A stretch of 54,236 nt of DNA from Chromera velia (lineage: Eukaryota). The notes under the pieces were generated by a model. It worked only from the letters and a program-made list of their open reading frames with translations, was not told the origin of the DNA and made no database searches. The stretch's first letter is position 1. Every line of letters starts with the position of its first letter. The translations under genes and the position numbers were made by a program. The stretch covers positions 1 through 54,236 of the forward strand of contig JAHBMJ010000195.1 of assembly GCA_018398765.1 (NCBI GenBank), read 5' to 3'. This document shows, piece by piece, positions 1,894-45,568 of this stretch.

Positions 1894-2439
1894 AACTGTG
1901 ACTTAAAGACAAAATGGCTTTGTAGTTATTGATAATTGTCTTCAAAACACGTATTGAAGCCTACTAAGAATCACGTACACTTTTGAAATTTATAAAAATA
2001 ATCCTAGAAATAATCAAAATATTCAATCATAAATTCATAATCAATCAACTTCTGACAAAAGTGATTATATTTAATCAAATATGATTAGACAGCCTTGTAT
2101 AAACTCGACTAAAAACTCGATCGATCTACTAAAATCACAGCTAAAATCTTATAAACTTCTATAAGAATCATATAGGATAACCTGGATAAGATCCAACCTT
2201 ATAATCCTGTAAATGCTCCTCTTTACGTAGCTCTTCACTCAAGCTCTTGAATGCTCTGCCCTCCATCCCCCCCCCCTCCCTCATTCCCACGTTTCTTCAC
2301 TCTTTTTTCTGCCCCTTTGCACGAAGAGTCCTGATCTCCTCTGCTATCTCCTCCCTCTGTTCTTGCTAGGTTTTACAGAGAAAATACGCGATCTGGGGCT
2401 CCTTCCCTAGCTCATCATTAAGCTCCTCCCCCTGCCATT

Positions 2440-3640
2440 TAACAAAATGGGAGGCCCAGAAGAAAAGAGGCCGACCCGCATCGTCCTCTGCATTCACATC
2501 GATGCCGCGAGACAGGAGTGCTCATGCTATCTGCACCTGGTTGCTCTCGTACCATGGCAGACGGTCTGTCGGCCAAGGCTGTGCACACAGCAGGTGAAGC
2601 ACGGAGGCTTCTTGCAAGTTTACTGTGTGGCACGTTGGCACCGTTGTTAAGGAGATAGTTAACGATGGGTGGTGCTGTGTACTACACAGCCAGGTGGAGG
2701 GGAGTGGTGCCATCTGAAGCGACGGCATTCACATCCGCCCCAGCCTCGACCAAAGCTTACGCAATGTCGAGATCGGGCTCCGTCATCTTGTTGTGGGTGT
2801 TGATCCGTACGAATTCATTGTCGAATGACTCGAATCCGTGTCCGATCTGATGGAGGGGCGTGAGCCCCTGCACGCTCCGGTCACGTCTCCAGAGGAAGTG
2901 GCCGTATTTGTGTGCATTCTACTGATTCACATCAGCACCACGCGAGATGAGGAGACGCACGACCTCGTGCTGGTTTCTCCTGACGGCGTAAGTCAGTTCA
3001 GACTTACCGTTTTCATCGAGAGCATCTCTGTTAAGACCGTGGTCAAGAAAGAACTCAACCAGGTCAACAGAGCCCCAGTAGGATGCGTAATGAAGCAGCG
3101 GCTCTCCGCCCTCTTCCACATGGTGGACGTACGCCCCTTAAGAGACACGCCCCTTGAGAGACAAAGAAGCGTACCGTGTCAACAATGTCACGAATCTCTT
3201 GAGGAGAATGCCGTTCCCTGCTCCCGTAGCATAAACTTCACAAAAGCGTCATCCCCTACACCTGAGGCCTCTCTGCACCCTCGAGCACAAAGAGTGTCAC
3301 CATTCCCCACTGCTTTTTTCTTGCGGCGAATACCACTAACTGCTCAAACCACTTCACGCCTGCACGCACCAGGACTCTGGCTACATCTAGATTCTTCTTG
3401 GAGACAGCCCGCCATAGTGACTTAGTGGCCACTTTTGCCCCCGCACTCACGAAAATATTCACAGCCTCTAGATTCTCAGTCGAGACCGCGCGCTCTAGCG
3501 CTGCCTCCTTCTCTTCATTAAGCCCAGAGGACACAGCATCCACATCGGCACCGGCCTCCAACAACATTTTCAGCGTGGTGCTGTTCTTCAGAGAGTCTGA
3601 CCGGGTAAAGGCAGTCTTGCTGGTCTAAATCTCCTGCTGC
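2440..3640 (-). pseudogene. Ankyrin-repeat protein pseudogene (boundaries approximate)
   Basis: Ankyrin motifs LLEAGADVDA, LLHYASYWGSVDLVEFFLDHG, LLISRGADVN and ALVEAGADVNAVASDGTTPLHLAV, interrupted by in-frame TAA/TAG stops and frameshifts. Confidence 0.85.
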
Positions 3641-3796
3641 CCCTGTCCTCAAAGCGCAAAGTTCTTCTTCATAATGCCATGTAAATCGGCACCTACACGG
3701 AGCACAAGGGCGAGGTCGTCTTCCTGCCTTGTCGTGCTGAAAGTGGCAAGGGCCTCTATAACCATCTCGGGAGAGACCGGCTGGTACTTTTGAATC

Positions 3797-3837
3797 TAGG
3801 GCGGAACATATCAATCAATCAATCAAATCAATCAATC
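3797..3837 (+). repeat. Second TAGGGCGGAACAT-(ATCA)n tag
   Basis: Matches 1840-1893. Confidence 0.5.
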
Positions 3838-4677
3838 TGATCCTCTCACATATCGGTAAAAAGTTGTGATAAGTCTATTTTGCAATTTTTACTGTGCATC
3901 TGATCAAGTTCTCTCAAAAGAAAACGTTTGAATCCAGCTGCTTTGTGCGTAATTCGAAACAGGGCTCAAGAGTCGAGGGAGGAAAGATTTTTATTAATTC
4001 CCTTGGGGCTGACAGCCCATGTTCAGGCGCGAGAGGATTCCACCACTGCAGCGAGGGTATCTTTCCTGTACCTAAAAACACTCAGAACTCCACATAAAAA
4101 AGTGTCGAGGGAGTGAAGACCCTCCAGAAGGGAGTTTGGAACTTCAATCAGAACATTCTTTTTTTATTTCAAGAGACAGCTGCTTGGCTTGAACACGGAC
4201 AACGGCTACCAGTGAGAAGAAAAACGAAGTCACAGAACACATAATTATCAATAAAGAGTCTTTGCCTTGTCTAACGCAAGCAACCGATACGTAGACTTCA
4301 GCAGTGACAGAAAGATCGATTGTGTGCTCCAGTACATATCGTCTGGAGAATTCTGGAGATGTCTGGAGAACCATTGAAGAAATTTGGAGAACCGTTGCAT
4401 GGAAACTCCCGGCATGGCCCAGAAAGCGTAGCTGCATGAGGGGCACTTACCGAGACCGAGACTTACAAAGAGTTGAGGTGGAAGGCCTTGGATGTCGACG
4501 TACGTGCTGAATCTCCGATTAAAAAACTGCATGACGCACATAATTTTCATCATTGCCCCGGAAATATCGCTAAGAGGGCACTTAACAAAACTCGAACACT
4601 TCCGACTCCAGTTAATTCCGAGTCTAAAGTTAATTTCGCTTTCTAGGCCATTTGCATGGAGTGCGTCAGATCGATAT

Positions 4678-4997
4678 CGTCAGATTTCCTCCTAGACTAA
4701 GAACGTAGTCTAGTTGGAGATTTATCATACCTTACCTCCTTAAGTCTGTCAGTCAGAGTTCATTTCTAAGGACTCCATTCAAGCGATACCGGTGGACGAA
4801 GACTGTACGGCATGCTTCTATTTCTTTCTGTATTGCAAGTCTACTATTTTTTTCTCTGTATTGTCAGTCTGTCACTTAATTCTCTTAGTGCACTTAATTA
4901 ATGCCGGCCAGGCTTAGTATTGCGAAGTTAGTTTCCCAATCCCAGTTCTAGCAAGTTTGGTGGGTGATCAAGTCGCCGTACAGGCCACAACGTAACG
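4678..4997 (-). repeat. 3' LTR (320 bp)
   Basis: ~95% identical to 10109-10428. On the + strand it starts CGTCAG and ends GTAACG. Confidence 0.97.
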
Positions 4998-4999
4998 TG

Positions 5000-5013
5000 C
5001 CCTCTCCTCCCCC
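5000..5013 (-). other. Polypurine tract GGGGGAGGAGAGGG
   Basis: Purine run on the minus strand 2 nt before the 3' LTR. Confidence 0.9.
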
Positions 5014-5031
5014 ATGGCCTGTGCACCTCAC

Positions 5032-8000
5032 TTAGGCCGAAGCATAGAAATTGACAATCGCTTGTTTTGTATTCTTCAATGACGACAGGGGCTCCCATGA
5101 TGCGTCTTCCAATGGATATCCCCTCCAGAGAACCTTGTACTGCTTGGTCTTGCCCCTCCCTCGGACTACAAGGATTTTCTCGACTTCATACTCCTCCTCG
5201 GCCCAAGCGAGCATGCGGACAGACGGGGGGCGAGTCTCCCTACTCTGCTGACGGTAAGGCTTGCACAACGATATGTGAATGATAGGGTGCTTCCTGCTCT
5301 CAGCAGGCAAAACAACCTCCAGATTGTTTCAAGGCAGAATGGTCTCGACTTCGAATGGACCGAACCAAACTGAATCAAGCTTCCTAACATATTCCTCTCC
5401 CTTCCCCATAGGACGTGGCCACCATGTGCGGTGCACCAGGATGTAATCTCTTACTTGGATGTTTTCGGCGGGATGCCGACGGCGATTGGCGTTTCGGGTC
5501 ATGACTTGTTGGGCTGAGCGGAGTAAATCTCTCACTGCAGCGATCATCTGGCTGTACTCCTCCAGATATTCCCCTGTGTTGAAAGAAGGTTCGACTGAGA
5601 CTGGGAGATTGAGAGTAGGGGGGATAAGCGGGGACTTCCCACCATCAAGAGTGAGGGGTGCAAAACCAGTCCCCTCATAGACAGAGGAGTTGTATGCAAA
5701 CTTCACATCATACAGAAATTCAGACCACCGGGAGTGCTTCGTGTCTACCAGACACCATAAAGCCTCCTCAAGGGTGCGATTCATTCTCTCTGCGGCACCT
5801 GCTATATCGTGGTGCAATGCAGTCGCGAAATCGACTTCTGAACCGCTGGAGGCATGGAAGGTCTGCCAAAAGCGGGCGACAAAACGGGGGTCACGGTCGC
5901 AGACGATATGACGCTGGAAGCCTTTCTTGCATGAAACGTGCTGGCGGTAGATTTGCGCGGTCTCCTCTGCTCCTGCTGTACTGTGAGTGGGAATCAAGAC
6001 GACTGCCTTGATGAGCCGGCAAAGCACCATAAGAATCGCATCAAACCCCTCATCACTGGAAGGCGGCAAGTCAGTAAGGCGGTCAATGCAAATCGACTCC
6101 CAAGGGCATGAAAGGATAGAGAGGGGCTGCAGAAGCCCGAGGCGGGCCGCAGTGGGACTCTTGCTTCTCTGACACCGATCGCACGCACGAACAAAAGAAG
6201 CGACTGACCTCCACATCTTGGGCCAGTAGTACAATGACGCCACCTTCCGATAGGTCTTCCCCATCTCAAAGTGAGCAGCGTGCAGAGGGGAGTGCACCCC
6301 AGCCATCACAGTCCCCTGCTGAGATTTAGGGACATAGAGACGATTCCTCTCAAAATACAGGAGACCGGCGTGAAGCGACATGCCTCGCAAACGAAGGGCA
6401 AAATTAGGGGTGGGGGCGGGTGGGTACTGCTGTGACAGATGCTGAAGGACAGGGTGGAAGAAGGGATCGGCTGAGTATCCCCTCCTGCAGGAATGCATTC
6501 GTGAAGACCGTCAAACTCTGCAACTCCATCCCTACCCGAGACTGCTGTCCATCTCCCTTCCTAACTGGAGTCTGGCTCTCCTCAATCTCAGGAACCAAAT
6601 CGGGTAGATCAGCGTACTCTGCCCCTAAAGACCCAACGGGCTGGACAGACACTGGGACAGCCTCTGGCAGAGGCCTGGGACGTACAGGCAGACGCTGAGC
6701 GCAACCCATGCGAGAAAGCTTGGCGGAAGACGGTATAAGCTGCCGTGCGGCAGGAAGGTTTCGGGAAAGGGCGTCTGCCACAACGTTTGCTCTCCCTGAG
6801 ATGTACTTTGGAGTGATGCCGAGCTCCTGCATGAACTTAATCCAGTGTCGGACTCACAGGGAGCAAAATTCGAACGATCGGTGGCTAAATTTGTGAGGCT
6901 CTGGTGATCGGTCCATATTTCGGAGTCTGAAGACAGGAAGTGTCTCCATACCTTTACGAAATGCACAATCGCTAGAAATTCCAACTCTCGGACGGGGTAC
7001 TTGGCTTCCGTAGATGTTAGACAGCGGGAGCCGAAAGCAAGGGGGCAGTATCTCCTGGTTGCGCAGTCCTTTTAGAGGGCGACAGCTCTAATAGCTCCTA
7101 CAGACTGCAACACATCAGGTACCAGAATGACTGGCTTGCTGGGATCGGGGAGGGCAAGGGTGGCGTGCTCCTGTACTGCCTTCTTCAGCTCAGCAAACGT
7201 ACGTGACTGTGCAGTCTTCCATTCGAAGGGGACATTCCCCTGGAGGAGGAATGTGAGAGGCCCCACAAGAAACGAGAACCTCGGGACAAACCGGCGGAAC
7301 CAATTGGCCAGTCCCAGAAACTGGTGTAGAGAAGTGCGGTCTGTGGGTTGTGTGAACTCAGTGAGCCCTTGTATTTTCTCATGGCTCGGTCTGACCCCCT
7401 TCCCATCAACCACTAACCCCAAAAATTTCGCCTCTGTCCGAAGCCATGCGCATTTAGAGACCTTAACGTAGAGCTGGTGTTCCCTCAAAAGGGAAAGGAC
7501 TTGGTTGATGTGCTTGATATGCTCCTCCGGAGTGCGGCTAAAAACAAGAACATCATTAATAAACATAACAACACACTTGTTAAGGAGTGGTCTGAGCACA
7601 TCCGTGATGAGACGCATGCTGATAGAAGGTGCGTTACACAAATCAAACGGCATCACCAGCCATTCAAAACTGCCGTACCTTGTGACGAATGCCGTCTTCT
7701 CCTCATCTCTCTCCCTGATCCTTGTCTGATGGAAGTATTGCCGTAAGTCCAGAGACGAGAAAAATTTCGCGCCGTGGAGGCGAATCAGCAGCTCCTCTGG
7801 GTGAGGAATGGGGAATTTGTCGCGGACTGTAATCTTGTTGAGTCCCGTGAAGTCGATGTACATCCGTTGCGTCCTGTCTGCCTTCTGCATAAACAGGACT
7901 GGTACAGTATATGGACTTGTCGAAGGGCAGATGTGCCCTTTCTCGAGGTATGAGTCCAACTGCCGTCTCAGCTCATCAAGCTGACCGTATGACAGTCGGT

Positions 8001-8850
8001 AGGGTGCTCTCGCAGGAGGAGCGTGCCCTGCCTCGAGCTTGATCTCACACTCGATTTTTCGGTGGGGCGGGGGACCCGGAAGCTCGTCTGAGAACCGATC
8101 AAAATATTTTTCGAGAACCGGTCGGACGCTGAGCAGGACCTCTTTGCTCTGGAGGTGCTTTCAGAATCCTGTGTAGGTCGAAGAATTGATGGGATGGTCA
8201 GGAAGGAAAGACGAAAGGGGCGGTGGGTCTCCGGGCTTACCGGCAGACTGTAGGGAATGCACCCCCAACGTATCACTCACCCCCCCCTTCCGCACTGCTT
8301 CGAGGCGGAACAGATACATATGGGAACTGGGTCTCTTCATCAGCCGATGGAGCTCTCTCTGGCTAAAGAAGTCCTCCCCCTCCCCTTCCGCCGGGTACTC
8401 CTCGCTGTCAAACAGGAGTAAGTCTCTCCCGGTTGGCAACTCACACGCGGGGATCGTGAGGGCCTTCTCATGGTAATATAAGATAGGAATGTACTCCTCA
8501 CAGAAGGGTATCCCCAACACAACATCGTAATCATCGTCCAGATCGACTACTGTGAGATCCAGAGGCGTGCTGAAGCCCTGGATACAGAGGGGAAGGCCTT
8601 TGACCTCCTGAGAAATCGGAAGCTACGGTCTCCCGTTCAACCTGCCCTTGCATGCGGTCGGCTCATCGAGATCCCAGAGAGTGAAGCGGTTTGACTCGGC
8701 AACGGAATGGGCAAAGAAGTTCGAATCTGCCCCAGGATCGTACAAACAGCGAACAGGGACCCCTGCCAACCGACCGTGGAAGCGGATGAGCTTCCCCGGT
8801 GCGTGGGAGGTTTTCATAGAGTAGTATCTGCGAAACAGGTAGCCGTTTTG
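5032..8850 (-). pseudogene. pol: pol polyprotein remnant: protease, RT, RNase H, integrase, chromodomain
   Basis: Protease CLYDPGADSNF. RT RDKFPIP..SLDLRQYFHQ..KTAFVTRYGSFEWLVMPF..FINDVLVFS. RH EFLAIVHFVKVWRHFL..TDHQSL and NVVADALSR. IN HSPLHAAH..CDRCQ..CDRDPRF..AERMNRTL. Chromodomain YEVEKIL..YKVLWRGYPLEDASWEP. Broken by stops and frameshifts. Confidence 0.95.
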
Positions 8851-10029
8851 CATGCCTGCATTCTGATTCTGCTGTCGCGACCCCTACAACCCCGGCAGGA
8901 AGTCAGTGACTGGGCGTGCGGCAAGCTGCCACATCTGCTGGTGCTGCATGGGTGAAGGTGCAAGGCCTGAGGGCACCACCAGACCCTGAGGTTGCATGAA
9001 AGGGTTGCTGACCCCCATATGCCTGAAATTCCGATTGTCAGGGCGGGGAGGGGCATTTCGATGCTGCTGTTGTTGCTGCTGAAATGACTGATATGGGAAG
9101 TTTTGGTGCTACTGGGGGAGGAGACGGTTGTTAGACTTTGGGCACCTGTTCGCCCGGTGGCCCTGTTAGTGGCAGCTGAGATATTTGTCTTCTCTGATGT
9201 GCCTCTGCACCTGCTCGTACGACAGCGCATATAGGTGTGACAATCTTTCTATTTTTATTGGTACAGGCCCATCCATGTTGCGCTGTTACACCGTATGCCC
9301 GCCCCCATCGGCGCGCTCGCCTCTGATCAATTGGTCTTCCTCGTCTGCCACTGTCATGACGGCCTCAAGTCCTGTGACTCTCCGACACTAGCCCCGACGC
9401 TTTACAGCGAGACGAATGTCAGTTGGCAATCCCCTGAGGTAGTCGTGTAGCAGGTCGGCTTCTGTGACATCCTCAATTTGCATGGCCTTCTTTATGAAGT
9501 CATCGGTGTACTTTTATACTGTCTTGTTCCCACATTTCATCGCTCAGACTTCCTCTCGCAAACATGTCTGAGCATTTAGGTCTTTGAATTTCTTCCTAAT
9601 CCTCTCTTTGAAATTCTCCCACCCCTGGAACGGCGTTCGAAGGTTTTTAAGCTCGTACCACCTCTGCAGGGGACAGGATAGATACTGATATGCTGCTTCG
9701 CATTTCTCAGCTTCCGATGCTCGCGATAAGCGAAGCCATCTCTCTATCGTACGGAGCCGATCTAGGAGTTGTTTGCGACTGCCTGCGTACGTGAACGGCT
9801 CTTTGGGTTTCAAATTTGACTTCACGACCGCTGGGAGGCTGTTCACCGCGGTGCCCTGTTGTGCTGTCACGACTGTCTACTGGTAGTTGATCAGCTCTTG
9901 GTGCAGCTGTTGATTCTGTTGGGTTAACTGCCCATTTTGGACCTGCAGTGCCTGGATCTCAGCTTACTGCTGCTGTTGAGTTTGAATGAGCTGCTGGATG
10001 AGCTCAGGAGTGATACTGGACAGATCCAT
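8850..10029 (-). pseudogene. gag: gag remnant with coiled-coil N-terminus and degenerate CCHC knuckle
   Basis: ATG 10029: MDLSSITPELIQQLIQTQQQQ*AEIQALQ..NYQ*TVV, then KPKEPFTYAG..WENFKERIRKKF. Knuckle YLSCH*QGHRANRC at 9183-9142. Confidence 0.85.
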
Positions 10030-10090
10030 CCTGCCCGCACGTCAAACAACGGTTGAGAGGCAGAGCAGGGTCTCCCTGAGGTGGAGGACC

Positions 10091-10108
10091 GGGGCTCTCC
10101 TGCTACCA
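10091..10108 (-). other. Primer binding site TGGTAGCAGGAGAGCCCC (tRNA-Met-like)
   Basis: TGG-starting sequence directly abutting the 5' LTR. TGGTAGCAG resembles the complement of initiator tRNA-Met 3' ends. Confidence 0.75.
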
Positions 10109-10428
10109 CGTCAGATTTCCTCCTAGACTAAGAATGTAGTCTAGTTGGAGACTTATCATACCTTACCTCCTTAAGTCTGTCAGTCAGAGTTCACTTCCAA
10201 GGACTCCATTCAAGCGATACCAGTGGACGAAGACTGTATGGCATGCTTCTATTTATTTCTGTATTGCAAGTCTATTATTTTTTTCTCTGTATTGTCAGTC
10301 TATCACTTAATTCTCTTAATGCACTTAATTAATGCCAGCCAGGCTTAGTATTGTGAAGTTAGTTTCCCAATCCCAGTTCTAGCAAGTTTGGCGGGTAATC
10401 AAGTCGCCGTACAAGCCACAATGTAACG
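10109..10428 (-). repeat. 5' LTR (320 bp)
   Basis: Direct repeat of 4678-4997. Confidence 0.97.
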
Positions 10429-10797
10429 GATATTCCGTATGCAGGGCCGCGGAACCGGCTTTTTTAAATTAATTGAAGCTCTGGGTGAGCCGCGCCCTGC
10501 CGCGGCGCGGCGAGTAGCTCTGACAAATGAGTGACAATTAATTATAATCTCTGTGCTATGCATCCACGAACCCTTATTTAAAAAATTATAATTGCCGACA
10601 TAAATGCATGGCCCCGGAAAGTGAAGCGGGGGGCACTTACAAAACAGAAATACCCCAGCCCGCAGTGTCTTTCACCAAAAACCCGGCCCCGAAAGGCTGA
10701 ATTTGCGAGATGCGTGCGTCAGATGGGTTTCAGATCTCTACTTACCCCCGGGCTTTTTTCCCGGGGGAGGGGGGGGTTCCGCGCATGCTTTTTTCTC

Positions 10798-10992
10798 NNN
10801 NNNNNNNNNNNNNNNNNNNNNNNNNNNNNNNNNNNNNNNNNNNNNNNNNNNNNNNNNNNNNNNNNNNNNNNNNNNNNNNNNNNNNNNNNNNNNNNNNNNN
10901 NNNNNNNNNNNNNNNNNNNNNNNNNNNNNNNNNNNNNNNNNNNNNNNNNNNNNNNNNNNNNNNNNNNNNNNNNNNNNNNNNNNNNNNNNNNN
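10798..10992. other. Assembly gap
   Basis: Run of N. Confidence 1.
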
Positions 10993-11349: not shown

Positions 11350-11988
11350 ATGCCTGGAAGATCCTCCTCCGCGGTTACCGCCAACGGTGCAAACGCAAAG
11401 AAGACCAAGAAAGAGGCGCACAACCCCCCTCCGGAGAGCAAGAAGACCTCTGCTGCCCATGCAAAGAAGAAACCCGACTCCGCCAGGGCCAGTGGCACGA
11501 ACCTCAAGAAGATGACGCTGAAGGACGCAATCGCACATTTCTTGGGCACACAGACAGACGTGGTGGGACTTGCCACGATCAAGAAAGCCATGAGTGACAC
11601 GTACGGGTTCGCTGCGGGAAGCGCTTTCAACAAGCGCCTCGCAAAGACGCTCACCGAAATGGTGGACTCGGAGACGATCGGAAAGAATCGTGGAAGTTAT
11701 CACGCAGGGAAGGATTCTGTTGCGGGGATCAACATAGCACTGCGTGAGGAAAAGAGGGCGGAAGCGGAGAGACGGGAAGCAGCTGGAGACATCAAATGTC
11801 CCTTCTGCGAGCGGTGGTGTTCAGGCCTCACCTGCTTCGTTGGAGAGGACAGCATTGCCCGTGGGGGGGAGTATCGGTGTGAGCACGCTGGCTGCAGGAA
11901 GACCCTCTGGACCTGGATCTCTGACGGCTACACGATCGGACGCCCAGTCGAGTACAAGGTCGCGTACAAGGGGCTTTACAAAAACTAG
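11350..11988 (+). CDS. Intronless 212-aa protein: Lys-rich N-tail, linker histone H1/H15-like winged helix, C-terminal Cys4 Zn-ribbon-like domain
   Basis: Clean ORF. DAIAHFLG..GLATIKKAMSDTYG..AFNKRLAKTLTEMVDSETIGKNRGSYH follows the H15 pattern (AI..SL.AIKK....Y...F...L..AL..LV..G.....GSY/F). CPFC..CEHAGC at the C-terminus. Confidence 0.75.
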   Translation: MPGRSSSAVTANGANAKKTKKEAHNPPPESKKTSAAHAKKKPDSARASGTNLKKMTLKDAIAHFLGTQTDVVGLATIKKAMSDTYGFAAGSAFNKRLAKTLTEMVDSETIGKNRGSYHAGKDSVAGINIALREEKRAEAERREAAGDIKCPFCERWCSGLTCFVGEDSIARGGEYRCEHAGCRKTLWTWISDGYTIGRPVEYKVAYKGLYKN

Positions 11989-29968: not shown

Positions 29969-32433
29969 ATGCAGTCTCTTCTTCTACTCCCGGCTTTTGC
30001 TGTTTGCCTTCTTTTAGGTTGGCCGTCTCCGTCTCTTGCCTCTCGGGGCTCTGAGACGGCGGGTGGGGGGCCTCTCGAAAGATTTCCTCCCAAGGTCCAG
30101 TTCTTTTGGACGGACATCGACCATTTCAATTTCGTCTCCAAGGTCAGAGACAGCTTCTGGTGCCTCACCTGTCCATGAGCTCATTTTCTTTCCTCTTTCC
30201 TTTCTCCAGTCGCTGCCGTCTCCGCCTTCACATCAAGATTTCCTTTCTGCCTGTCTTGTCATCTTTTCCTCCTGAGCCCCTCTCTGCAATTTGCTACACC
30301 CTCCTCTGCTCACCCTTTTCTGACCCTTCGGAGGAGAAAACAGCTTTCTGTTTTCTCTTTCCGAGGTGCCTCTACGAGTTCATTCGGAGTGAAAAATAAG
30401 TCTCCGTCTCCGTGCACTACCTGGTGTCTCGTCGTGCATCTTCACTGTAGCTCTGCTCTGAATTCCTTCTTTTTCTCCACGTTGTCATCTACTCTCCCAC
30501 ACCCCTCCCTCCCTTTCCCTGTTTCTTTTCTTTCCTTCCGCCTCTTTCTCTCTCTCTCCCCTCCATCTCCCCCTTTGACCCGCCCTTGCTTCCCTCAACC
30601 CCTCCCTCCCACCCTCTGTGTGTGTGTGTACGTGAGTGTGAGTACAAGTGTCTACACCGATGCTGGCTGTGTGCATAATGATGGCACATCCCCGTCTCGT
30701 CTCTTTGGCCTACACTGAAATGAACTGTCAGCAGAGTCCCGCCCAGAAGTTTGCCGTGAAAGTGCTGACGTACGATGGCTTCTACAACCGTCTCCCCGAG
30801 TCCCCCCTCTTGGTCTATTTGGGCAACGAGGGGGTGATCGAGAGTTTCTACAACAATACCGGGGCAATGTTCGAGATAGCAGAGGAAATGGGGGCGCTGG
30901 TTGTCTTCATCGAACATAGGTGGGTCTTGGTCTCTTCCCCGTTCCTCCTTTGTCTGTCTCTGGTTCTTTTTTCTGTCGTTTCCCCCTCCCTCCCTCCTCT
31001 TTGATGTCCTGCCGTACGCTCTATTCTGCTGTGAAACATCTCCACAACTCTATTCTTTTTTTTCTGAGAGAGCTGCGGTCTTCTTGAAAGACGACTCGAG
31101 TGAGTAAATTGGGACTTGAAGTCTGGAAATCGTTCTTTTTTTCCCCTCTTATTTTCTTGCTTCGCTTTTCTTCTTCCCCTTTTTTGCTGCGAATGTCTAA
31201 AAATGTTCCCGAAGCAACACACCCTTGGGAGCCCATGTATGCGTGTCTCTAAATGTGTTTGTGGATGTTTTTCATACGCATGAGATCTATATATCGATAT
31301 GATAATAAATGAATTGCAAGTCTGCATGCAGGTATTACGGTAACGGCACCTCCCTTCCTTGGGGGGGGAATTCTTTCACCGAAGAGCACTTGGCCTTCCT
31401 CACTGTCGAACAGGCAATGGGGGATTTTGCGGAGGTGCTCTCTCAGATGCGCACAGATCTGGAATGCACGGGGGCCAAGGCATGTCCCACTATTCTGTTT
31501 GGAGGCTCTTACGGTGCCATGCTTGTCGTGTGGTTTCGGCAGAAATACCCACACCTCTCTGTGGGGGGTGTTGCTGCATCTGCCCCTGTGAACACTTTTG
31601 CTGATGATTTGGATCTTGGGGCTCTGTTTTGGAATGCTTCCCTGTCTGTGTTCGGGTCTGAGGGTAAGATTGTGGGGTGGCCTCAGTGTGAGCAGACTGT
31701 GAAGAAGGGAATGGATGAGATACAGAAAAAGTCGTTGCGGCAGCTTTCAGGCACATTCCCTGTCTGCAAGAAGATGGAGACCGAGACGGACAGACTGCGT
31801 CTGGAGGCGTATGTGCGGGGTGCGCTGTCGACTCTGGCGATGAGTGACTACTCAGTTCAGGCAGACCTGATGCAGCCCCTGCCTCCCTTTCCTGTCAGAG
31901 AGGCCTGCAAAAGGATGCGGCAGCATGTGCGCAAAGGGAAAGGTTCGTCTCCCCTCCTGAAGGATCTGGTTGGAGCAGTGAACCTGATGGTGAACAGCAC
32001 GGAGAAGCTGGAGTGCTGGGATTTGGGAAGAGAGTTGATTGAAGAAGAAGGAGGGAGAGAAAGAGGGAATGCAGGAGAGGACTTCTCTGGGAATTTCCCG
32101 CCGTCTCTCTCTATGGGGGGCAATTCTCTTGGAGACATCTGGAAGGTCTGGTCTTTTCAGGTAATTGGGAGGGGGGGGTCTTTTCAGGTAACTAAGCGTC
32201 TGTGGTGGGGGCGGGGAGGGATGCATTAGTTTTGTCGAGCAGACAGACTTGCATGAATGCATGCGGACTTCGAGTGTACGCTCTTTTTTTTGTTCAGCAG
32301 AGAGTGTTAACAAGAAGAAGAAAGCTGCATTGGTTGTTATCCGAAAGAAAGAAAGATGCGGTCTTCTATTGATTCTCGACATTTCGATCAGGGCAACGGG
32401 TCAGATACACACACTGGCATCAATAGACAGAAA

Positions 32434-32471
<38 letters not shown>

Positions 32472-32496
32472 CACGGATACACTGTATGCTGCTTGA

Positions 32497-32538
<42 letters not shown>

Positions 32539-32583
32539 TGTGTGTCTGTCTGTCTGTCTGTCTGTGTCTGTCTGTCTATGTGT

Positions 32584-32615
<32 letters not shown>

Positions 32616-33115
32616 AGGTCTGCACAGAGCTCCCCATGCAGCCTCTGACTTCTGAGGATTTCGGCTTCCTCATTCCCTTCTCTGAGGACCATTCCCGCGC
32701 CCTGAAGGCCGCATGTGCCCGTCTGTTCCCCCACACCAAGTGGAGGCCGTTGTGGATGCGCACAGCCACGGGAGGCGACTCTCTGGGTTCCGTGTCGAAT
32801 CTCATCTTCAGCGATGGAGCCAAGGACCCCTGGGGGGCGGGGGGTCCGAACAGGGCGTGCTACGAGAGAATCGTTCAGGGAAAGTCCACAGAAGGCTGCG
32901 AGGAGATGAAGCCCCAAACGGGGTCTCCTCAGAGCTTTGCACTCCACCCCTCAGCTGTGCGTTTGTTCATCAGAGACGGCGCGCACCACGCAGACCTGCG
33001 CGCATCCGACCCGAATGACAGTGAGGAACTCCGGAGAGCGCGAAGGAAGGAGAGGGAGGTGATGAGGAAGTGGATTGACGAGGCATTGGGGAAAGAGGTT
33101 TTGAATGTCGCATGA
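29969..33115 (+). CDS. Serine peptidase family S28 (lysosomal Pro-X carboxypeptidase / DPP-II like), 4 exons: 29969-30142, 30732(or 30735)-30919, 31332-32160, 32618-33115
   Basis: Signal peptide. Motifs [36 protein letters not shown] (catalytic Ser), WFRQKYP, ASAPV, FQVCTE, DPW (Asp) and GAHHADL (His). Splice phases are consistent. Confidence 0.95.
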
Positions 33116-33604
33116 GGGGATCGATCGAGGCCGGGAGGATTGTCACTAAGTCGGTCGATCGAGCCTGATAATTTTAGCCTTCGATGATGCAGGTTACAGG
33201 TTGCAGGCTATCAATGGGTCCGCCTGTTCTTCTTTCATTTAATTAGACTTTTTGTCGTGCTTCTCGTATCACTGCCAAGACCTGATCATCCACCTTCTAA
33301 ATGATTTATTTACAATATGCTAATCTGATTCACTAAAGAAAAAAATGTAGAAGAAACACCTTTTTAAATCCAGTTTTTAATTGTATAAACTAAGTTAAAC
33401 TCTAGCTTAAACCTTAGAAAGAAGACTTACTAAATAGACTTATCATAAATAAATTTTCATTGAAAAAGTTTTTAAATTATTGTTAATTGCTAGATTTATA
33501 ATATTGGTTGCATTGTCTGTAGGATATCATAGTACATTCAATAATTTGTCTAGTATAGTGTATACATTAGCATAGTATACATGCTAGTATACATGCATGG
33601 TTTA

Positions 33605-34660
33605 CACTGAAACTATAGTGTGACACAATTCAAATTATGACACAATACCCTATACACTAGTACTAGTGACACAATGTTAAGTGCTAGTGATACAAATAAT
33701 TGTGTCACAATAGGTGTTACAATAGTTAGTGTGACGTAAGTATAGATTGTGTATAAGACTGCGTGGTGTGAGCGCAAACGAGCACCTTGCATGATCCTTG
33801 CATGCTTTCTGGGACCACATCAAAAAAGAGCGTGCGTCTCAGCCAGAGCAACTGGAATTAGATGTCGCATCTGAATTGTAGCAAAGTCAGTCTGACAGTG
33901 CAGGTACTAACTGATTGAACGATGGAACGATGACGTATGTCTAGATTGACAGACCTTCCGTCCTGATGTTATGAATATGATGAGCCCTGTGTATGTGTTA
34001 CAGTTAGAGTAAGTTAGGTATGATGAAATTGTCAGACAAAAATTGAAGTGATCCTAAACTTTTAAAGTTGACTAGCTTGAAATCTTTAGAGTCGTTGAAG
34101 TTTAGACTCACCTCATTCACTCGATCACTCACCTCACTCACTCATTCACTCATATCCCTTACTCACTCCACCCACTCATCTACTCACCCCACCCATTTAC
34201 CCACTCACCTCACTCACTCACTCACTCGCTCACTCACTCAACACTGGAGAAGAGCAAGGAAGGGGTGCGCAGCGGTTCATAGAGCGGTTCAGGCACAAAC
34301 TGCTGCTCGGGAGTGTTGCTATCCTAAGGGAGATGCTAGTAGTCTACAATGAGGTGGGACATGGCTTGACAGTTTCGGCTTGTATGGCTAAGGTTGCACT
34401 GCATAGTTTGTACGAGTTTGCCTACGAGTTTGCGCACCGCTGTACGTTTTTTTCGTGGGGTCATGCATGCACGCTTTGTTCATACATGCATGCAGTCCAC
34501 GCAGCCCGCAGCGGCTATGACGCTGCCCCATGACGCGTATCAAGCCGTGATCTATAACTATTTTTTCATACATAAGTGTGATTTAATTAAATCTATCAAA
34601 AGTTCTTAAAATTACAGTTATTATTTCACAATCTCCTTGTGACACACTATAGTTCTAGTG
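33605..34660. mobile_element. Non-autonomous CACT-ended TIR element (CACTA/CMC-like), copy 1
   Basis: TA-CACTGAAACTATAGTGTGACACAA ... TTGTGACACACTATAGTTCTAGTG-TA, with GTGACACAA subterminal repeats. Confidence 0.7.
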
Positions 34661-36758
34661 TAGCATACCATGGTGGAGTAGGCGGGAATATACTATGTAA
34701 TGCCCAAGAATGCCTACCGAGAGTACTGTTTCATTTTAGGCTTTTCTCATACAATTAGACAAGAAAGAAACTCTACCAGCTAAGTTGAAATGCACTTCAA
34801 ATTTTTAACCTGGGCGCATCCAAGCCTGAATTAATTTATAATCATGATTGATCATGATGTTCCCTCCAAGAACCATTTGTTATATATATAGTCCGATCGC
34901 GAAATGACGCTAAACGGCCGCAGCGATTTCGGACCCCTAAACCAAACAGCCAGATTCTAACTCTAAACAAATGAGACATACAAACAGATGTAAGCGGCTT
35001 ACATAAGAGGCACAGGTATAAACAACACCCCAAAAAGAGGATAGATAAAAACACACTCCAAAAAATTGTATGATTTCATTGGAAAAAAAGCGTGATTGAA
35101 AGGATCGATTGATTTCCATGGCCTCGGGATTCGCCCGATTTCCCTTAAACCGCTCGAACTCAAGTACACTGTCTTTCATTACAAATCCCCCCCCCGGTAT
35201 CATAAACAACATAGTACAATCAATGCATAATTTCAGGCTCGTTTAAGTTTCCGTAAAAGTGATGATTTTTTTTTTTAATATAAAGATCTATCCGTCTTAT
35301 AGAATTCAACAAGACAAACATACAAAAAGCAAAAAAAAATTGGGATGGATCTAGGGATGGCTTTGCAAAGACCAGATCGGCAGGTTCCATCAGAAGGAAA
35401 AAGGGACTCTTCACAGATCTACAACAGCCACAAACAACACAATAACACCATCTCTTTGGCGACTAAGCGGCACACTCATATGCGCAGTCATCAAGCTCAT
35501 ACAGCTGCAGGCAGCTACCGTCAGCCTACATACCCCCTAGCATATACCCCACACAGCACTCACCCGTGCTGGCCTGTCAGGGCAAGCATAGCGGGTTCAA
35601 TCAGAACTTATTCAGAAGGAAGAAGGGACTCTTAACACCTCTCCAACAACCACAAACGACACAATAACAACCTCTCTCTGGCGACCAACCAGCATACTCA
35701 TATACTTAGTCATCAAGCTTGTACAGCTACAGACAGCTGCCGCCAGCGTATATACATCCCACAGAGCACTCACCCATGCTGGCCTGTCAGGGCAAAGATG
35801 GCGGGTTCAATCATAAAAAAGAAGGGACTCTTAACCTAGCTCTTAACACCTCTCCAGCAACCACAAATGACACAATGATAACCTCTCTCTGGCAACCAAC
35901 CGGTATACTTATATACCTAGTTATCAAACTTGTACAGCCGTAGACAGCTGGCAGTGCCGCCAGCGTACACACACACCACACAGCACTTACCCGTGCTAGC
36001 CTGTCAGGGCAAGGATGGCGGGTTCAATCATATTAAGAAAGAAGGGACTCTTGACACCTCTCTAGCAACCACAAATGACACAATGACAACCTCTCTCTGG
36101 CGACCAACCGGCATACTCACATACCTAGTCAATGACATCAAACTTGTACAGCCGCAGACAGCTGTCACCAGCGTATACACACCCCACACAGCACTTACCC
36201 ATGCTGGCCTGTCAGGGCAAGGATGACGGGTTCAATCATAAGAAAGAAGGGACTCTTAACCTAGCTCTTAACACCTTTCTAGCAACCACAAATGACACAA
36301 TGACAACCTCTCTGTGGCGACCAACCAGCATACTCATATACTCAGTCATCAAGCTTGTACAGCCGCAGACAGCTGCCGCCAGCGTATACACAACCTACAC
36401 AGCACTCACCCGTGCTAGCCTGTCAGGGCAAGCATAGCGGGTTCAATCATAAGAAAGAAGGGACTCTTGACACCTCTCCAGCAACCATAAATGACACAAT
36501 GACAACCTCTTTGTGCTGACGAACCGGTATACTCATATACCTAGTCATCAAACTTGTACAGCCGCAGACAGCTGCCGCCAGTGTACATACACCCCACACA
36601 GCACTTACCCATGCTGGCCTGTCAGGGCAAGGATGGCGGGTTCAATCATAAGAAAGAAGGGACTCTTGACACCTCTCTAGCAACCACAAATAACACAATG
36701 ACAACCTCTCTTTGATAAGTAACCGGCATACTCACATACCCAGTCATCAAACTTATAC

Positions 36759-37959
36759 CAGGGTTGCTTTTCTAGTCGGTAACAGGTCTAGTCTACCGGC
36801 AATTGCCGGTAACTGGTAATCGCCTCAGTCTGCCTTCCTTTTTCCGACAAAAAAAATGATAAAAATTAGGGTCCCAAAAAAAAAATTTCACCTGCGGCGC
36901 CAACCTTCAAAAACATATTTTTAAGTGTTTATTGGCATTTGAAAAGCCTATTCACACACAAAAAAAAATTAAAAAAATATTTAAAAAATATAAATTTTTA
37001 ACTGCTTCACGGTAGCCTTCACTCCTATAAGTAGCAAAAAGTTCCAACAGCTCTAGAGTTTCTCTGAAGTGCTCTGGCCCACTTTTTTTTTAGTCCAGCC
37101 TATCATACTACAAGAGAAAGAGAGAGAAAGAGAGAGAGAATAAAAGAGAGTCGCTCTCCCTACCACAGGACCAAACAGTTTCCGTTCATGCTATTGCTTT
37201 CCTTATCTCTGTTTGCTTATATGTACAGGCCCAAATTGCCACCCAATCGACTTAATTATAATTAATATACACAAAGGTCCACTCGCCTTTCGCTCCTGTA
37301 CTCGCTCTCCCTGTCTCTGTCTGCTCATACATAAACCCAATTGCCTTTCATTCACATACTTGCCCTCCCTGTCTCTACAAACACCCAACCGCCTTTCGTT
37401 CCCTGTCTCTGTTCGCTTATTTACTTATAATTCTTTCATGTCTGCTTGCTTGCAGATGGCAAATCTTCACCCCCCTGGGTCTCCGGAGTCAGAGGCCCTT
37501 CGAGGCCTCAGATATCAGCTTTTAGCGGCGGGTCTTTCTTTGGAGGCTGGAGCACTAGATTGGGAGGACCACCCAAACTTTGAGGCGGACTCAGAGTCTT
37601 TCCGTTGTTGGAATCGCGCGGATGCATCTGTCTGGGCCAGCTGTGGTCATTGCGGCCAGCGGTTTTCTGTTTTTGGGCGCCAAGTGCAAGACGGGACCCA
37701 TTGCTTCGACCTGCGGCATCTTCAAGCACATTGGCCGCATAGCTGTCCCTACAGATGACGCATTGACTTTTTGAATTAACCTTAAGTCTAGCCTTAAGTG
37801 ATTGATTGATTGACCTATAACCTAGGACTTAGATTATTGAAAAGTGTTAGTGACTATTAGAATTCTGCCAAGTCTTTGCCAACTGCCAGCAAACTCTGCC
37901 GGTAATTACCAGTTACCGGTAATGAAGCTTGTCTACCGCCGAAAAAATCGGCAACCCTG
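36759..37959 (+). mobile_element. Non-autonomous hAT-type DNA transposon, copy 1
   Basis: TIR CAGGGTTGC/GCAACCCTG. 8-bp TSD ACTTATAC/ACTTGTAC. Subterminal TACCGG/CCGGTAA repeats. Confidence 0.92.
37456..37758 (+). CDS. 100-aa BED-like zinc finger ORF inside the hAT element
   Basis: ATG directly after a TGCAG acceptor. WEDHPNF..ASCGHCGQRF..GTHCFDLRHLQAHWPHSC. Confidence 0.55.
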   Translation: MANLHPPGSPESEALRGLRYQLLAAGLSLEAGALDWEDHPNFEADSESFRCWNRADASVWASCGHCGQRFSVFGRQVQDGTHCFDLRHLQAHWPHSCPYR

Positions 37960-39159
37960 ACTTGTACAGCCGCAGACAGTTGCCACCAACATACACACAC
38001 CCCACACAGCACTCACCCATGCTGGCCTGTCAGGGTAAGGATGGCGGATTCAATCATAAGAACAAAGGGACTCTTAACACCTCTTGAGCAACCACAAATG
38101 ACACAATGATAACCTCTCTATGGCGACCAAGCGACATACTCACATACCTAGTTATCAAACTTGTACAGCCGCAGACAGCTGTCGCCAGCGTACACACACC
38201 CCACACAGCACTTACCCGTGCTAGCCTATCAGGGCAAGGATAACGGGTTCAATCATAAGAAAGAAGGGACTCTTAACCTAGCTCTTAACACCTTTCTAGC
38301 AACCACAAACGACACAATGACAACCTCTCTGTGGCGACCAACCGGCATACTCACATACTTAGTCATCAAGCTTGTACAGCCGCAGACAGCTGCCGCCAGC
38401 GTATACATTCCCTACACAGCACTCACCCGTGCTGGCCTATCAGGGCAAGGATAGCGGGTTCAATCATAAGAAAGAAGGGACTCTTGACACCTCTCCAGCA
38501 ACCACAAACGACACAATGATAACCTCTCTGTGGCGACCAACCGGCATACTCACATACCCAGTCAATGACATCAAACTTGTACAGCCGCAGACAGCTGCCG
38601 CCAGCGTACACACATCCCACACAGCACTTACCCGTGCTGGCCTATCAGGGTAAGGATGGCGGGTTCAATCATAAGAAAGAAGGGACTCTTAACACCTCTC
38701 CAGCAACCACAAATAACACAATGACAACCTCTCTTTGGTGAGTAACCGACATACTCACATACCTAGTCATCAAACTTGTACAGCCGTAGACAGCTGCCAC
38801 CAGCGTGCACACACCCCACACAGCACTCACCAGTGCTAATGCCGTACGCTCTATTCTGCTGTGAAACATCTCTACAACTCTATTCTTTTTTCTGAGAGAG
38901 CTGCGGTCTTCTTGAAAGACGATTCGAGTGAGTAAATTGGGACTTGAAGTCTGGAAATCGTTCTTTTTTTCCTCTCTTATTTTCTTGCTTCGCTTTTCTT
39001 CTTCCCCTTTTTTGCTGCGAATGTCTAAAAATGTTCCCGAAGCAACACACCCTTGGGAGCCCATGTATGCGTGTCTCTAAATGTGTTTGTGGATGTTTTT
39101 CATATGCATGAGATCTATATATCGATATGATAATAAATGAATTGCAAGTCTGCATGCAG

Positions 39160-40338
39160 GTATTACGGTAACGGCACCTCCCTTCCTTGGGGGGGGAATT
39201 CTTTCACCGAAGAGCACTTGGCCTTCCTCACTGTCGAACAGGCAATGGGAGATTTTGCGGAGGTGCTCTCTCAGATGCGCACAGATCTGGAATGCACGGG
39301 GGCCAAGGCATGTCCCACTATTCTGTTTGGAGGCTCTTACGGTGCCATGCTTGTCGTGTGGTTTCGGCAGAAATACCCACACCTCTCTGTGGGGGGTGTT
39401 GCTGCATCTGCCCCTGTGAACACTTTTGCTGATGATTTGGATCTTGGTGCTCTGTTTTGGAATGCTTCCCTGTCTGTGTTTGGGTCTGAGGGTAAGATTA
39501 TGGGGTGGCCTCAGTGTGAGCAGACTGTGAAGAAGGGAATGGATGAGATACAGAAAAAGTCGTTGCGGCAGCTTTCAGGCATATTCCCTGTCTGCAAGAA
39601 GATGGAGACCGAGACGGACAGACTGCGTCTGGAGGCGTATGTGCGGGGTGCGCTGTCGACTCTAGCGATGAGTGACTACTCAGTTCAGGCAGACCTGATG
39701 CAGCCCCTGCCTCCCTTTCCTATCAGAGAGGCCTGCAAAAAGATGCGGCAGCATGTGCACAAAGGGAAAGGTTCGTCTCCCCTCCTGAAGGATCTGGTTG
39801 GAGCAGTGAACCTGATGGTGAACAGCACGGAGAAGCTGGAGTGCTGGGATTTGGGAAGAGAGTTGATTGAAGAAGAAGGAGGGAGAGAAAGAGGGAATGC
39901 AAGAGAGGACTTCTCTGGGAATTTCCCACCGTCTCTCTCTATGGGGGGCAATTCTCTTGGAGACATCTAGAAGGTCTGGTCTTTTCAGGTAATTGGGAGG
40001 GGGGGGTCTTTTCAGGTAACTAAGCGTCTGTGGTGGGGGCGGGGAGGGATGCATTAGTTTTGTCGAGCAGACAGACTTGCATGAATGCATGCGGACTTCG
40101 AGTGTACGCTCTTTTTTTTGTTCAGCAGAGAGTGTTAACAAGAAGAAGAAAGCTGCATTGGTTATTATCTAAAAGAAAGAAAGATGCGGTCTTCTATTGA
40201 TTCTCAACATTTCAATCAGGGCAACGGGTCAGATACACACACTGGCATCAATAGACAGAAAAGCACACACACACACATACACACACACACACACACATAG
40301 ACAGACAGACAGACAGACACAGACAGACAGACAGACAG

Positions 40339-40381
<43 letters not shown>

Positions 40382-40464
40382 AAGCAGCATACAGTGTATC
40401 CGTAGCACACACACATACATACACACACACACACAGAGTCACGGATACACTGTATGCTGCTTGA

Positions 40465-40501
<37 letters not shown>

Positions 40502-41087
40502 CTGTCTGTCTGTCTGTCTGTGTCTGTCTGTCTGTCTGTCTATGTGTGTGTGTGTGTGTGTGTGTATGTGTGTGTTCTCTTCTTTGCAGGTCTGCACAGA
40601 GCTCCCCATGCAGCCTCTGACTTCTGAGGGTTTCAGCTTCCTCATTTCCTTCTCTGAGGACCATTCCCGCGCCCTGAAGGCCGCATGTGCCCGTCTGTTC
40701 CCCCACATCAAGTGGAGGCCGTTGTGGATGCACACAGCCACGGGAGGCGACTCTCTGGGTTCCGTGTCGAATCTCATCTTCAGCGATAGAGCCAAAGACC
40801 CCTGGGAGGCGGGGGGTCCGAACAGGGCGTGCTACGAGAGAATCGTTCAGGGAAAGTCCACAGAAGGCTGCGAGGAGATGAAGCCCCAAACGGGGTCTCC
40901 TCAGAGCTTTGCACTCCACCCCTCAGCTGTGCGTTTGTTCATCAGAGACGGCGCGCACCACGCAGACCTACGCGCATCCGACCCGAATGACAGTGAGGAA
41001 CTCCGGAGAGTGCGAAGGAAGGAGAGGGAGGTGATGAGGAAGTGGATTGACGAGGCATTGGGGAAAGAGGTTTTGAATGTCGCATGA
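39160..41087 (+). pseudogene. 5'-truncated S28 peptidase pseudogene (exons 3-4 only)
   Basis: No promoter or exons 1-2. TGG>TAG stop at 39968-39970. G>R and G>E changes flank the DPW motif. Confidence 0.93.
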
Positions 41088-41576
41088 GGGGATCGATCGA
41101 GGCCGGGAGGATTGTCACTAAGTTGGTCGATTGAGCCTGATAATTTTAGCCTTCGATAATGCAGGTTACAGGTTGTAGGCTATCAATGGGTCCGCCTGTT
41201 CTTCTTTCATTTAATTAGACTTTTTGTCGTGCTTCTTGTATCACTGCCAAGACCTGATCATCCACCTTCTAAATAATTTATTTACAATATGCTAATCTGA
41301 TTCACTAAAAAAAAAAATGTAGAAGAAACACTTTTTTAAATCCAGTTTTTAATTGTATAAACTAAGTTAAACTCTAGCTTAAACCTTAGAAAGAAGACTT
41401 ACTAAATAGACTTATCATAAATAAATTTTCATTGAAAAAGTTTTTAAATTATTGTTAATTGCTAGATTTATAATATTGGTTGCATTGTCTGTAGGATATC
41501 ATAGTACATTCAATAATTTGTCTAGTATAGTGCATACATTAGTATAGTATACATGCTAGTATACATGCATGGTTTA

Positions 41577-45160: not shown

Positions 45161-45511
45161 CAGGGTTGCTTTTTTAGTCGGTAACAGGTCTAGTCTACCG
45201 GCAATTGCCGGTAACCGGTAATCGCCTCAGTCTGCCTTCCTTTTTCCGACAAAAAAAATGATAAAAATTAGGGTTCCCAAAAAAAAAATCCACCTGCGGC
45301 GCCAACCTTCAAAAACATATTTTTAAGTGTTTATTGGCATTTGAAAAGCCTATTCACACACAAAAAAAAATTAAAAAAATATTTAAAAAATATAAATTTT
45401 TAACTGCTTCACGGTAGCCTTCACTCCTATAAGTAGCAAAAAGTTCCAACAGCTCTAGAGTTTCTCTGAAGTGCTCTGGCCCACTTTTTTTTTAGTCCAG
45501 CCTATCATACT

Positions 45512-45568
<57 letters not shown>

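What the first reader, a model, noticed from the sequence alone, without database searches (positions are those of the whole stretch)
4673..10433. Chromovirus LTRs end in 5'-CG...CG-3' instead of TG...CA
Seen: LTR-LTR homology and the GATAT TSD both fix the boundaries exactly. In element orientation both LTRs read CGTTAC...CTGACG, so all four ends are CG. Known: LTR/retroviral integrases almost always join a CA-3' end. Inference: local mutation runs C>T/G>A, which would turn CG into TG/CA and not the reverse. The CG ends are therefore probably the native integrase substrate, implying altered end specificity. De novo LTR finders that require TG..CA would miss the family.
Basis: partly seen in the sequence, partly recalled or inferred. 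Interest (0 to 1): 0.8.

Follow-up and report, generated by a model that had tools for sequence, protein, structure and literature searches.

The report
Retrotransposon with CG ends, altered integrase
A family of jumping genes, likely from the alga Chromera, ends in CG instead of the near-universal TG...CA, and its integrase carries a lineage-specific change in the loop that grips the DNA end in related enzymes, which likely lets it join a G-ended DNA.

Summary
Confirmed and extended. A dead 5.75-kb Ty3/gypsy element with a chromodomain has 320-bp LTRs (95% identical), a GATAT duplication, and CG at all four LTR ends. Contigs from public runs show other copies breaking off at the same bases (up to 6 flanks at one end, 4 at the other), so CG is a family trait. 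Local decay runs C>T/G>A, away from CG. The ends are the usual chromovirus motif with only the terminal base pair switched; 8 relatives with both ends readable are TG...CA type, none CG. New here: the integrase loop that wedges into the DNA end in foamy virus (Pro214-Gln215) reads His-Asp in 19 of 19 Chromera-type integrases and 0 of 210 others. These form one clade, so it is one event: correlation, not proof. I found no paper describing CG...CG ends; other non-canonical ends are published. The scan noted CG...CG before, in diatom Copia elements on other DNA (unchecked here), which hints at convergence. New variant of a known kind; the specificity switch is inferred and directly testable.

The parts
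4673..4677 (.). Target-site duplication GATAT (left copy)
4678..4997 (-). 3' LTR, 320 bp, CGTTAC...CTGACG on the element strand
   Evidence: boundaries shared by other copies
4998..4999 (-). 2-nt CA spacer between polypurine tract and LTR; would be trimmed by 3' processing (inferred)
   Evidence: relative L025 has the same CA spacer before TGTTA
5000..5013 (-). Polypurine tract
5047..5190 (-). Chromodomain at the integrase C-terminus
   Evidence: PF00385, E 2.8e-12
5332..6510 (-). Integrase: zinc-binding domain, D-D-E core, GPF motif (5353-5367)
   Evidence: PF17921; family member P0005 matches Ty3 Gag-Pol at E 1e-48 and PFV integrase at E 4e-20
5788..5814 (-). Integrase active-site loop HHDIAGAAE; the His-Asp at 5806-5811 aligns to PFV Pro214-Gln215
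6760..7220 (-). RNase H, broken by a stop and a frame change
   Evidence: PF17917/PF17919
7410..7890 (-). Reverse transcriptase core
   Evidence: PF00078, E 8e-28
8626..8883 (-). Aspartic protease (weak match)
   Evidence: PF13650 E 0.011, below cut-off; motif at 8728-8742
8890..10029 (-). Gag-like region in frame with pol, with a degenerate CCHC knuckle at 9142-9183 and several stops
   Evidence: no Pfam match for the three pieces scanned
10095..10108 (-). Primer-binding site abutting the 5' LTR; likely initiator-Met tRNA (recalled acceptor-stem pattern, no tRNA library searched)
   Evidence: family variant at 10099
10109..10428 (-). 5' LTR, 320 bp, CGTTAC...CTGACG
   Evidence: boundaries shared by other copies
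10429..10433 (.). Target-site duplication GATAT (right copy)

Best explanation
This is a dead copy of a multi-copy chromodomain-bearing Ty3/gypsy family whose LTRs end in CG at both ends, and whose integrase likely co-evolved with those ends to join a CG-3' hydroxyl to target DNA. Shown: the ends, their sharing across copies, the 5-bp duplication, the domain order, and a fixed Pro-Gln to His-Asp change in the integrase loop. Inferred steps: reverse transcription primed by initiator tRNA leaves a U5 end that is blunt or nearly blunt at ...GACG; the polypurine-tract primer leaves a U3 end with two extra bases that integrase trims to expose ...AACG-3'; the His-Asp loop occupies the place where PFV Pro214-Gly218 pry the strands apart and stack on the terminal adenine, and accommodates or reads a terminal G:C pair instead; strand transfer with a 5-base stagger gives the duplication. 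The penultimate C is kept, so only the terminal pair was recoded.
For: Ends. Family-wide: loose ends pile up exactly at the CG. Outer U5 side (10109): 4 contigs in X1, 6 in X2, mixed flanks (agreement 0.47-0.55). Outer U3 side (4997): 4 in X1, 4 in X2, 1 in the sediment run X5. No shown row puts a boundary one base inside, and the uncut variant table lists no other letter at 10109, 10110, 10427 or 10428. Register: the published Sushi chromovirus motif is TGTYANR...CNTNACA (PMC3601003, Table 3 passage); here CGTTACR...TCTGACG. Relative L104 starts TGTTACG against CGTTACG here. Of 176 related loci, 8 had both termini readable; all start TG and end CA (in L048 one of the two LTRs ends TA); none has CG. 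Loop: ungapped alignment to PFV and Ty3; His-Asp in 19 of 19 Chromera-type proteins covering the loop (18 labelled Chromera plus the window's own) against 0 of 210 others, 0 of 79 and 0 of 97 loci, and 1 of 133 further representatives, that one labelled Chromera. Three of the 11 conserved columns that this lineage replaced, out of 89, fall in the five-residue loop (hypergeometric p=0.013, computed after noticing it). PFV Pro214-Gly218 intrude between the strands and stack on the adenine (PMC6784120, passage). Both ends are copied from different LTRs during reverse transcription (established knowledge), so symmetric CG needs two separate changes.
Against: The His-Asp integrases are one clade on a long branch (100/99), so loop and ends co-occur once: n=1. 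Eight other conserved columns also changed. CG ends are shown only for this subfamily, not for the two sister subfamilies (P0005, P0012 groups). The Pro position is not strictly tied to CA: RSV has Ser there (PMC7955051, passage), and Ala, Gln or Ser occur in a few outgroup proteins. The structural passages read describe stacking and van der Waals contacts, not a hydrogen-bond read-out of the terminal base (PMC3395085, PMC6784120). Contig tables were partly hidden (68 and 8 loose-end rows; 29 variant rows), X1 and X2 probably hold the same loci, and contigs drop rare variants. The locus scans selected on the conserved loop pattern, so they are biased, and the outgroup holds many near-copies.
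Confidence: 0.7

Rival explanations
1. The integrase is merely tolerant. CG ends drifted to fixation in a founder, and the His-Asp loop is unrelated lineage divergence or serves another role (target or host-factor contact).
For: One clade, long branch, 11 conserved columns replaced. RSV keeps CA with a non-Pro residue (PMC7955051). Plant Copia families with different ends intermingle on the integrase tree (PMC9804982, passages), which suggests tolerance.
Against: Both ends changed to the same base, against a mutation pressure that destroys CpG. The replaced residues cluster in the end-binding loop. His-Asp is kept across three subfamilies down to 49% identity.
Confidence: 0.22
2. The CG ends are post-insertion mutation, an assembly error, or a misplaced boundary in this one copy.
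For: The copy is old and broken (5% LTR divergence, 13 premature stops, two frame changes). The 8 bases CGTCAGAT also occur 14 bp upstream in the left flank. No listed contig bridged this copy's own outer junctions.
Against: Four matching ends; inner ends fixed by primer-binding site and polypurine tract; other copies share the boundaries in several runs; only 2 of 14 polarised changes run T>C/A>G.
Confidence: 0.03
3. CG is fixed for a reason outside integrase, for example primer removal or polypurine-tract cleavage by this RT/RNase H, and integrase followed passively.
For: The primer-binding site abuts the terminal G with no spacer, and both ends are followed by TG on the joined strand, so primer handling sets the unprocessed ends.
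Against: Relatives with the same CA spacer still start TG (L025). No RT or RNase H feature was examined that would favour G.
Confidence: 0.05

Closest known systems
Chromoviruses (Ty3/gypsy with integrase chromodomain; Sushi-type LTR motif TGTYANR...CNTNACA, PMC3601003) and yeast Ty3 (PDB 7q5b)
   Same: Domain order protease-RT-RNase H-integrase-chromodomain, GPF motif, 5-bp duplication, sub-terminal LTR motif.
   Different: Terminal pair is C:G, not T:A, at both ends; integrase loop is His-Asp where Ty3 and PFV have Pro-Gln.
Zam-clade errantiviruses of insects (AGTTA...TAAYT; PMC3601003, passage and Table 3)
   Same: A Ty3/gypsy lineage with a symmetric change of the terminal base at both ends.
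   Different: Terminal base is T, not G; a different lineage. Their integrase loop was not examined here.
Plant non-TGCA elements (Tos17 TG..GA, TARE1 TA..CA, lotus TGCT and others, pear TGTT and AACA; 10.1101/137141, PMC9804982, PMC5659011, passages)
   Same: Non-canonical ends that are competent for transposition; short LTRs of about 300 bp.
   Different: Mostly Copia and mostly asymmetric. In the lotus set the first base is always T and the last A or T; no end in these passages is C-first or G-last.
Diatom Copia families CoDi3.2, 4.2, 4.3 (PMC2806351, passage: TG/CA missing) and this scan's unchecked notes of CG...CG diatom Copia elements
   Same: If the notes hold, the same CG...CG ends.
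   Different: Another superfamily and host, 4-bp duplication, about 88-bp LTRs. The paper's main text does not state what the ends are; its supplement could not be read and may list them.

Membership tests
Ty3/gypsy LTR retrotransposon | Two direct LTRs with primer-binding site, polypurine tract and target-site duplication | tested here: met
Ty3/gypsy LTR retrotransposon | Pol order protease-RT-RNase H-integrase | tested here: met
   (protease match weak)
Ty3/gypsy LTR retrotransposon | D-D-E integrase related to Ty3 | tested here: met
   on family member P0005 (61% identical to the window's integrase): Ty3 E 1e-48
Chromovirus | Chromodomain at the integrase C-terminus, after a GPY/F motif | tested here: met
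   PF00385 E 2.8e-12; WFGPF
Chromovirus | RT phylogeny inside the chromovirus clade with named references | not tested
   The integrase tree held 14 Chromera-type and 45 of 209 other rows and no named chromovirus references
Canonical TG...CA LTR elements | 5'-TG...CA-3' termini | tested here: not met
   CG...CG
Canonical Ty3/PFV-type integrase | Pro-Gln (or Pro-Glu) in the active-site loop before the catalytic Glu | tested here: not met
   His-Asp
Integrase with CG end preference | Biochemical preference for CG-3' ends | not testable with these tools
   Needs an assay or a protein-DNA structure; the complex tool takes no DNA

The most novel reading that the evidence does not exclude
The Pro-Gln to His-Asp swap in the active-site loop is the switch that recodes the 'invariant' CA rule to CG. 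All three Chromera subfamilies would then end in CG, the loop alone would flip end preference in an assay, and CG-ended diatom Copia elements would show a parallel loop change. That would make a natural, repeated experiment on how integrases read the terminal base.
Probability: 0.35. Interest if true: 0.85.

Novelty: new variant of a known kind. Interest (0 to 1): 0.72.

Why it matters
The CA-3' end is treated as invariant for retroviral and LTR integrases, and the structural passages read here show stacking rather than a clear base read-out. A natural family with a clean terminal A-to-G switch at both ends, and a matching two-residue change in the end-binding loop, names specific residues to test. 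It also shows that motif-gated LTR searches can overlook whole families in protists, and that CpG decay can disguise old CG-ended copies as canonical.

Tried and rejected
No whole genome was held, so no census of copies and duplications. No other LTR copy or pol fragment lies in the window. An exact 22-base LTR pattern found 0 matches in metagenome contigs. The RT scan of viral contigs gave 8 distant loci (26-28%), not used. No RNA holder was listed. No listed contig covered 10440-10490; this proves nothing. The loop-focused protein search gave 6 hits among 15 candidates, all Chromera. The Atlas returned only generic integrase clusters. A structure prediction of P0005 was still unfinished at the last try; nothing rests on it. 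Alignment A2 was too patchy to seed locus scans; A1 was used. The polypurine-tract scan found a purine run in 30 of 51 sequences but many were false; it is used only for L025. Most of the 176 related loci had no readable LTR pair; L052 and L157 start TG with an unclear end. Rejected: a 6- or 7-bp duplication absorbing C/G; CG as a target-site preference (it is also present at both inner ends); the flank motif as the true boundary. Literature: searches found no description of CG...CG LTR ends or of Chromera LTR termini; searches returned 0 papers, and exact-phrase searches are weak. The library lacks most subscription journals, and Repbase was not available. The original PFV intasome paper was not held. 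The supplement of PMC2806351 could not be read; 4 of 16 supplement files of PMC4501334 were not searched; supplements of the bioRxiv papers were not seen. PMC12477816, PMC13524379, PMC4139406, PMC4976072 and the Ty3 preprint (passages) and PMC2946245 (part 1 of 2) added nothing on CG ends.

Full report
Observation. The element lies on the minus strand between two GATAT copies (4673-4677, 10429-10433). Its LTRs (4678-4997, 10109-10428) are 320 bp, differ at 16 sites and have no indels; identity stops at once outside them. On the element strand both read CGTTAC...CTGACG. The inner ends are pinned separately: the primer-binding site starts with TGG directly after the 5' LTR, and a 14-nt polypurine tract plus CA precedes the 3' LTR. 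All four ends are CG.

What it is. The interior encodes a Gag-like region with a degenerate zinc knuckle, a weak protease match, RT, RNase H, integrase and a chromodomain, in Ty3/gypsy order. The copy is dead, with 13 premature stops and two frame changes. The 15 best integrase hits after the window's own are labelled Chromera velia (50-88% identical); the best hits from elsewhere follow at about 35%. The host is therefore likely Chromera (inferred). The Chromera genome paper reports 4.33 Mb of Gypsy; the passages and supplement rows I saw give no termini (PMC4501334).

Family trait or accident. No genome was held, so I laid contigs of public runs on each LTR. On the right LTR, contigs with unrelated flanks begin exactly at 10109 (4 in X1, 6 in X2); others leave at 10428-10430 and one at 10434; the uncut variant table has no row at the four terminal bases. 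On the left LTR, contigs with flanks other than the polypurine tract leave at 4997 (4 in X1, 4 in X2, 1 in the sediment run X5), and 6 contigs each in X1 and X2 start at 4678, some of them from the primer-binding side. No shown row places a boundary one base inside, as a TG or CA variant would. Limits: 68 and 8 loose-end rows were hidden, X1 and X2 probably share loci, contigs drop rare variants, and no listed contig bridged this copy's own outer junctions.

Direction of mutation. With the family majority as reference, 11 of 14 polarised LTR differences are C>T/G>A, 2 are the reverse and 1 is a transversion; 2 could not be polarised. CpG positions differ at 7 of 26 against 8 of 115 other C/G positions (p=0.008). 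Decay removes CG, so it cannot explain four CG ends, and old copies should drift towards TG or CA.

Register. The published Sushi chromovirus end motif is TGTYANR...CNTNACA (PMC3601003). The element matches it at 6 of 7 positions at the start and 5 of 7 at the end, with the terminal base switched at both. Among 176 related loci from three collections, 8 had both termini readable (L048, L059, L069, L085, L104, L127, L136, L159). All are TG...CA, one with a TA in one LTR, and five show a 5-bp duplication. L104 starts TGTTACG, and L025 has a purine run, CA, then TGTTA, where this element has a purine run, CA, then CGTTA.

The integrase. Aligning natural family members showed that the loop before the catalytic Glu, HPQTDG in Ty3 and HPQSSG in PFV, reads HHD-x-x-G here. 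His-Asp at the Pro-Gln positions is found in 19 of 19 Chromera-type proteins covering the loop and in 0 of 210 others; 7 of 236 proteins did not cover it. It is absent from 79 and 97 loci (scans biased to the conserved loop). Among 135 new representatives from a profile search of 1.84 billion, 133 covered the loop: one had His-Asp (labelled Chromera), one unnamed protein had His-Thr, one distant protein Tyr-Asp. In PFV, Pro214-Gly218 intrude between the strands and stack on the adenine (PMC6784120); contacts to the scissile bases are van der Waals (PMC3395085). In RSV the Gln stacks on the G opposite the penultimate C and the Pro position is Ser (PMC7955051). Of 89 columns conserved in the outgroup, 11 were replaced in this lineage, 3 of them in the five-residue loop (p=0.013, post hoc). 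The Chromera integrases form one clade (100/99) with three subfamilies, 49-95% identical (14 Chromera-type and the 45 best of 209 other rows).

Mechanism. Shown: CG ends, family-wide boundaries, 5-bp duplication, loop change. Inferred: initiator-tRNA priming gives a U5 end at or near ...GACG; the CA spacer gives a U3 end needing a two-base trim, the mirror of foamy virus, where only U5 is trimmed (PMC6784120); the His-Asp loop accommodates a terminal G:C pair. From general chemistry (recalled), Asp can read the pairing edge of an unpaired guanine as Gln can read adenine, but no structure supports that here. The two ends come from different LTRs during reverse transcription, so symmetric CG needed two changes against the local mutation pressure; that favours preference over mere tolerance. 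The link to the loop rests on one evolutionary event.

Comparison and novelty. Non-canonical ends are known: Zam-clade AGTTA...TAAYT (PMC3601003), plant TG..GA, TA..CA, TGCT, TGTT and AACA (10.1101/137141, PMC9804982, PMC5659011; passages). In the lotus survey the first base is always T and the last A or T. Three diatom Copia families lack TG/CA, ends unstated in the passage read (PMC2806351; supplement unreadable). Eight searches found no CG...CG description, within the library's limits. This scan has four unchecked notes of CG...CG Copia elements in diatoms, and none for this genome or protein. If they hold, CG ends arose in both superfamilies.

Verdict. Observation confirmed; first reading supported. 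A new variant of a known kind, with a concrete candidate determinant. Confidence that CG is the family's native end is about 0.93; that the integrase prefers it, about 0.7; that the His-Asp pair is the switch, about 0.35. Interest 0.72.

Noticed in passing
window 4560-4672: The left flank is itself a multi-copy repeat; 15-16 contigs per run leave it at 4671 with mixed flanks. It ends in a motif whose last 8 bases equal the first 8 of the LTR on the + strand. The motif recurs at 10716, 11085 and 25846. Coincidence or link unresolved.
   Followed up: partly
protein P0243 (unnamed Logan contig): Integrase with loop HHTTAGQAE, 37% identical to P0005: shares His, Ala and Ala with the Chromera loop but not Asp. 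A possible intermediate or parallel case; its DNA could not be fetched.
   Followed up: partly
window 4678-4997 and 10109-10428: CpG-biased decay (about 4-fold) plus non-CpG C>T/G>A in the LTRs suggests cytosine methylation or deamination of repeats in this host.
   Followed up: partly
window 31010-47270: Tandem segmental duplication (about 8 kb period, 93-98%) holding two serine carboxypeptidase S28 pieces (PF05577) and arrays of about 200-bp units.
   Followed up: no
window 2400-3800 (-): Broken ankyrin-repeat-like coding sequence, judged by eye from the translation; no family scan completed.
   Followed up: no
window 11350-11988 (+): ORF of about 210 aa with a Lys-rich start, a segment resembling a linker-histone globular domain (by eye) and a Cys-rich end; no Pfam hit at E 0.01 in the overlapping frame scanned.
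   Followed up: no
window 10798-10992: Assembly gap of 195 N, 365 bp right of the element.
   Followed up: no
loci L105-L184: 80 contigs in prokaryote genome records encode eukaryote-type gypsy integrases, some inside full LTR elements (L136 lies in a 6.65-Mb MAG chromosome); likely contamination or mis-assembly.
   Followed up: no
L157:1719-1798 and 9867-9946: An 80-bp direct repeat reading TG...CT around a gypsy element with a normal loop; no duplication found, ends uncertain.
   Followed up: no
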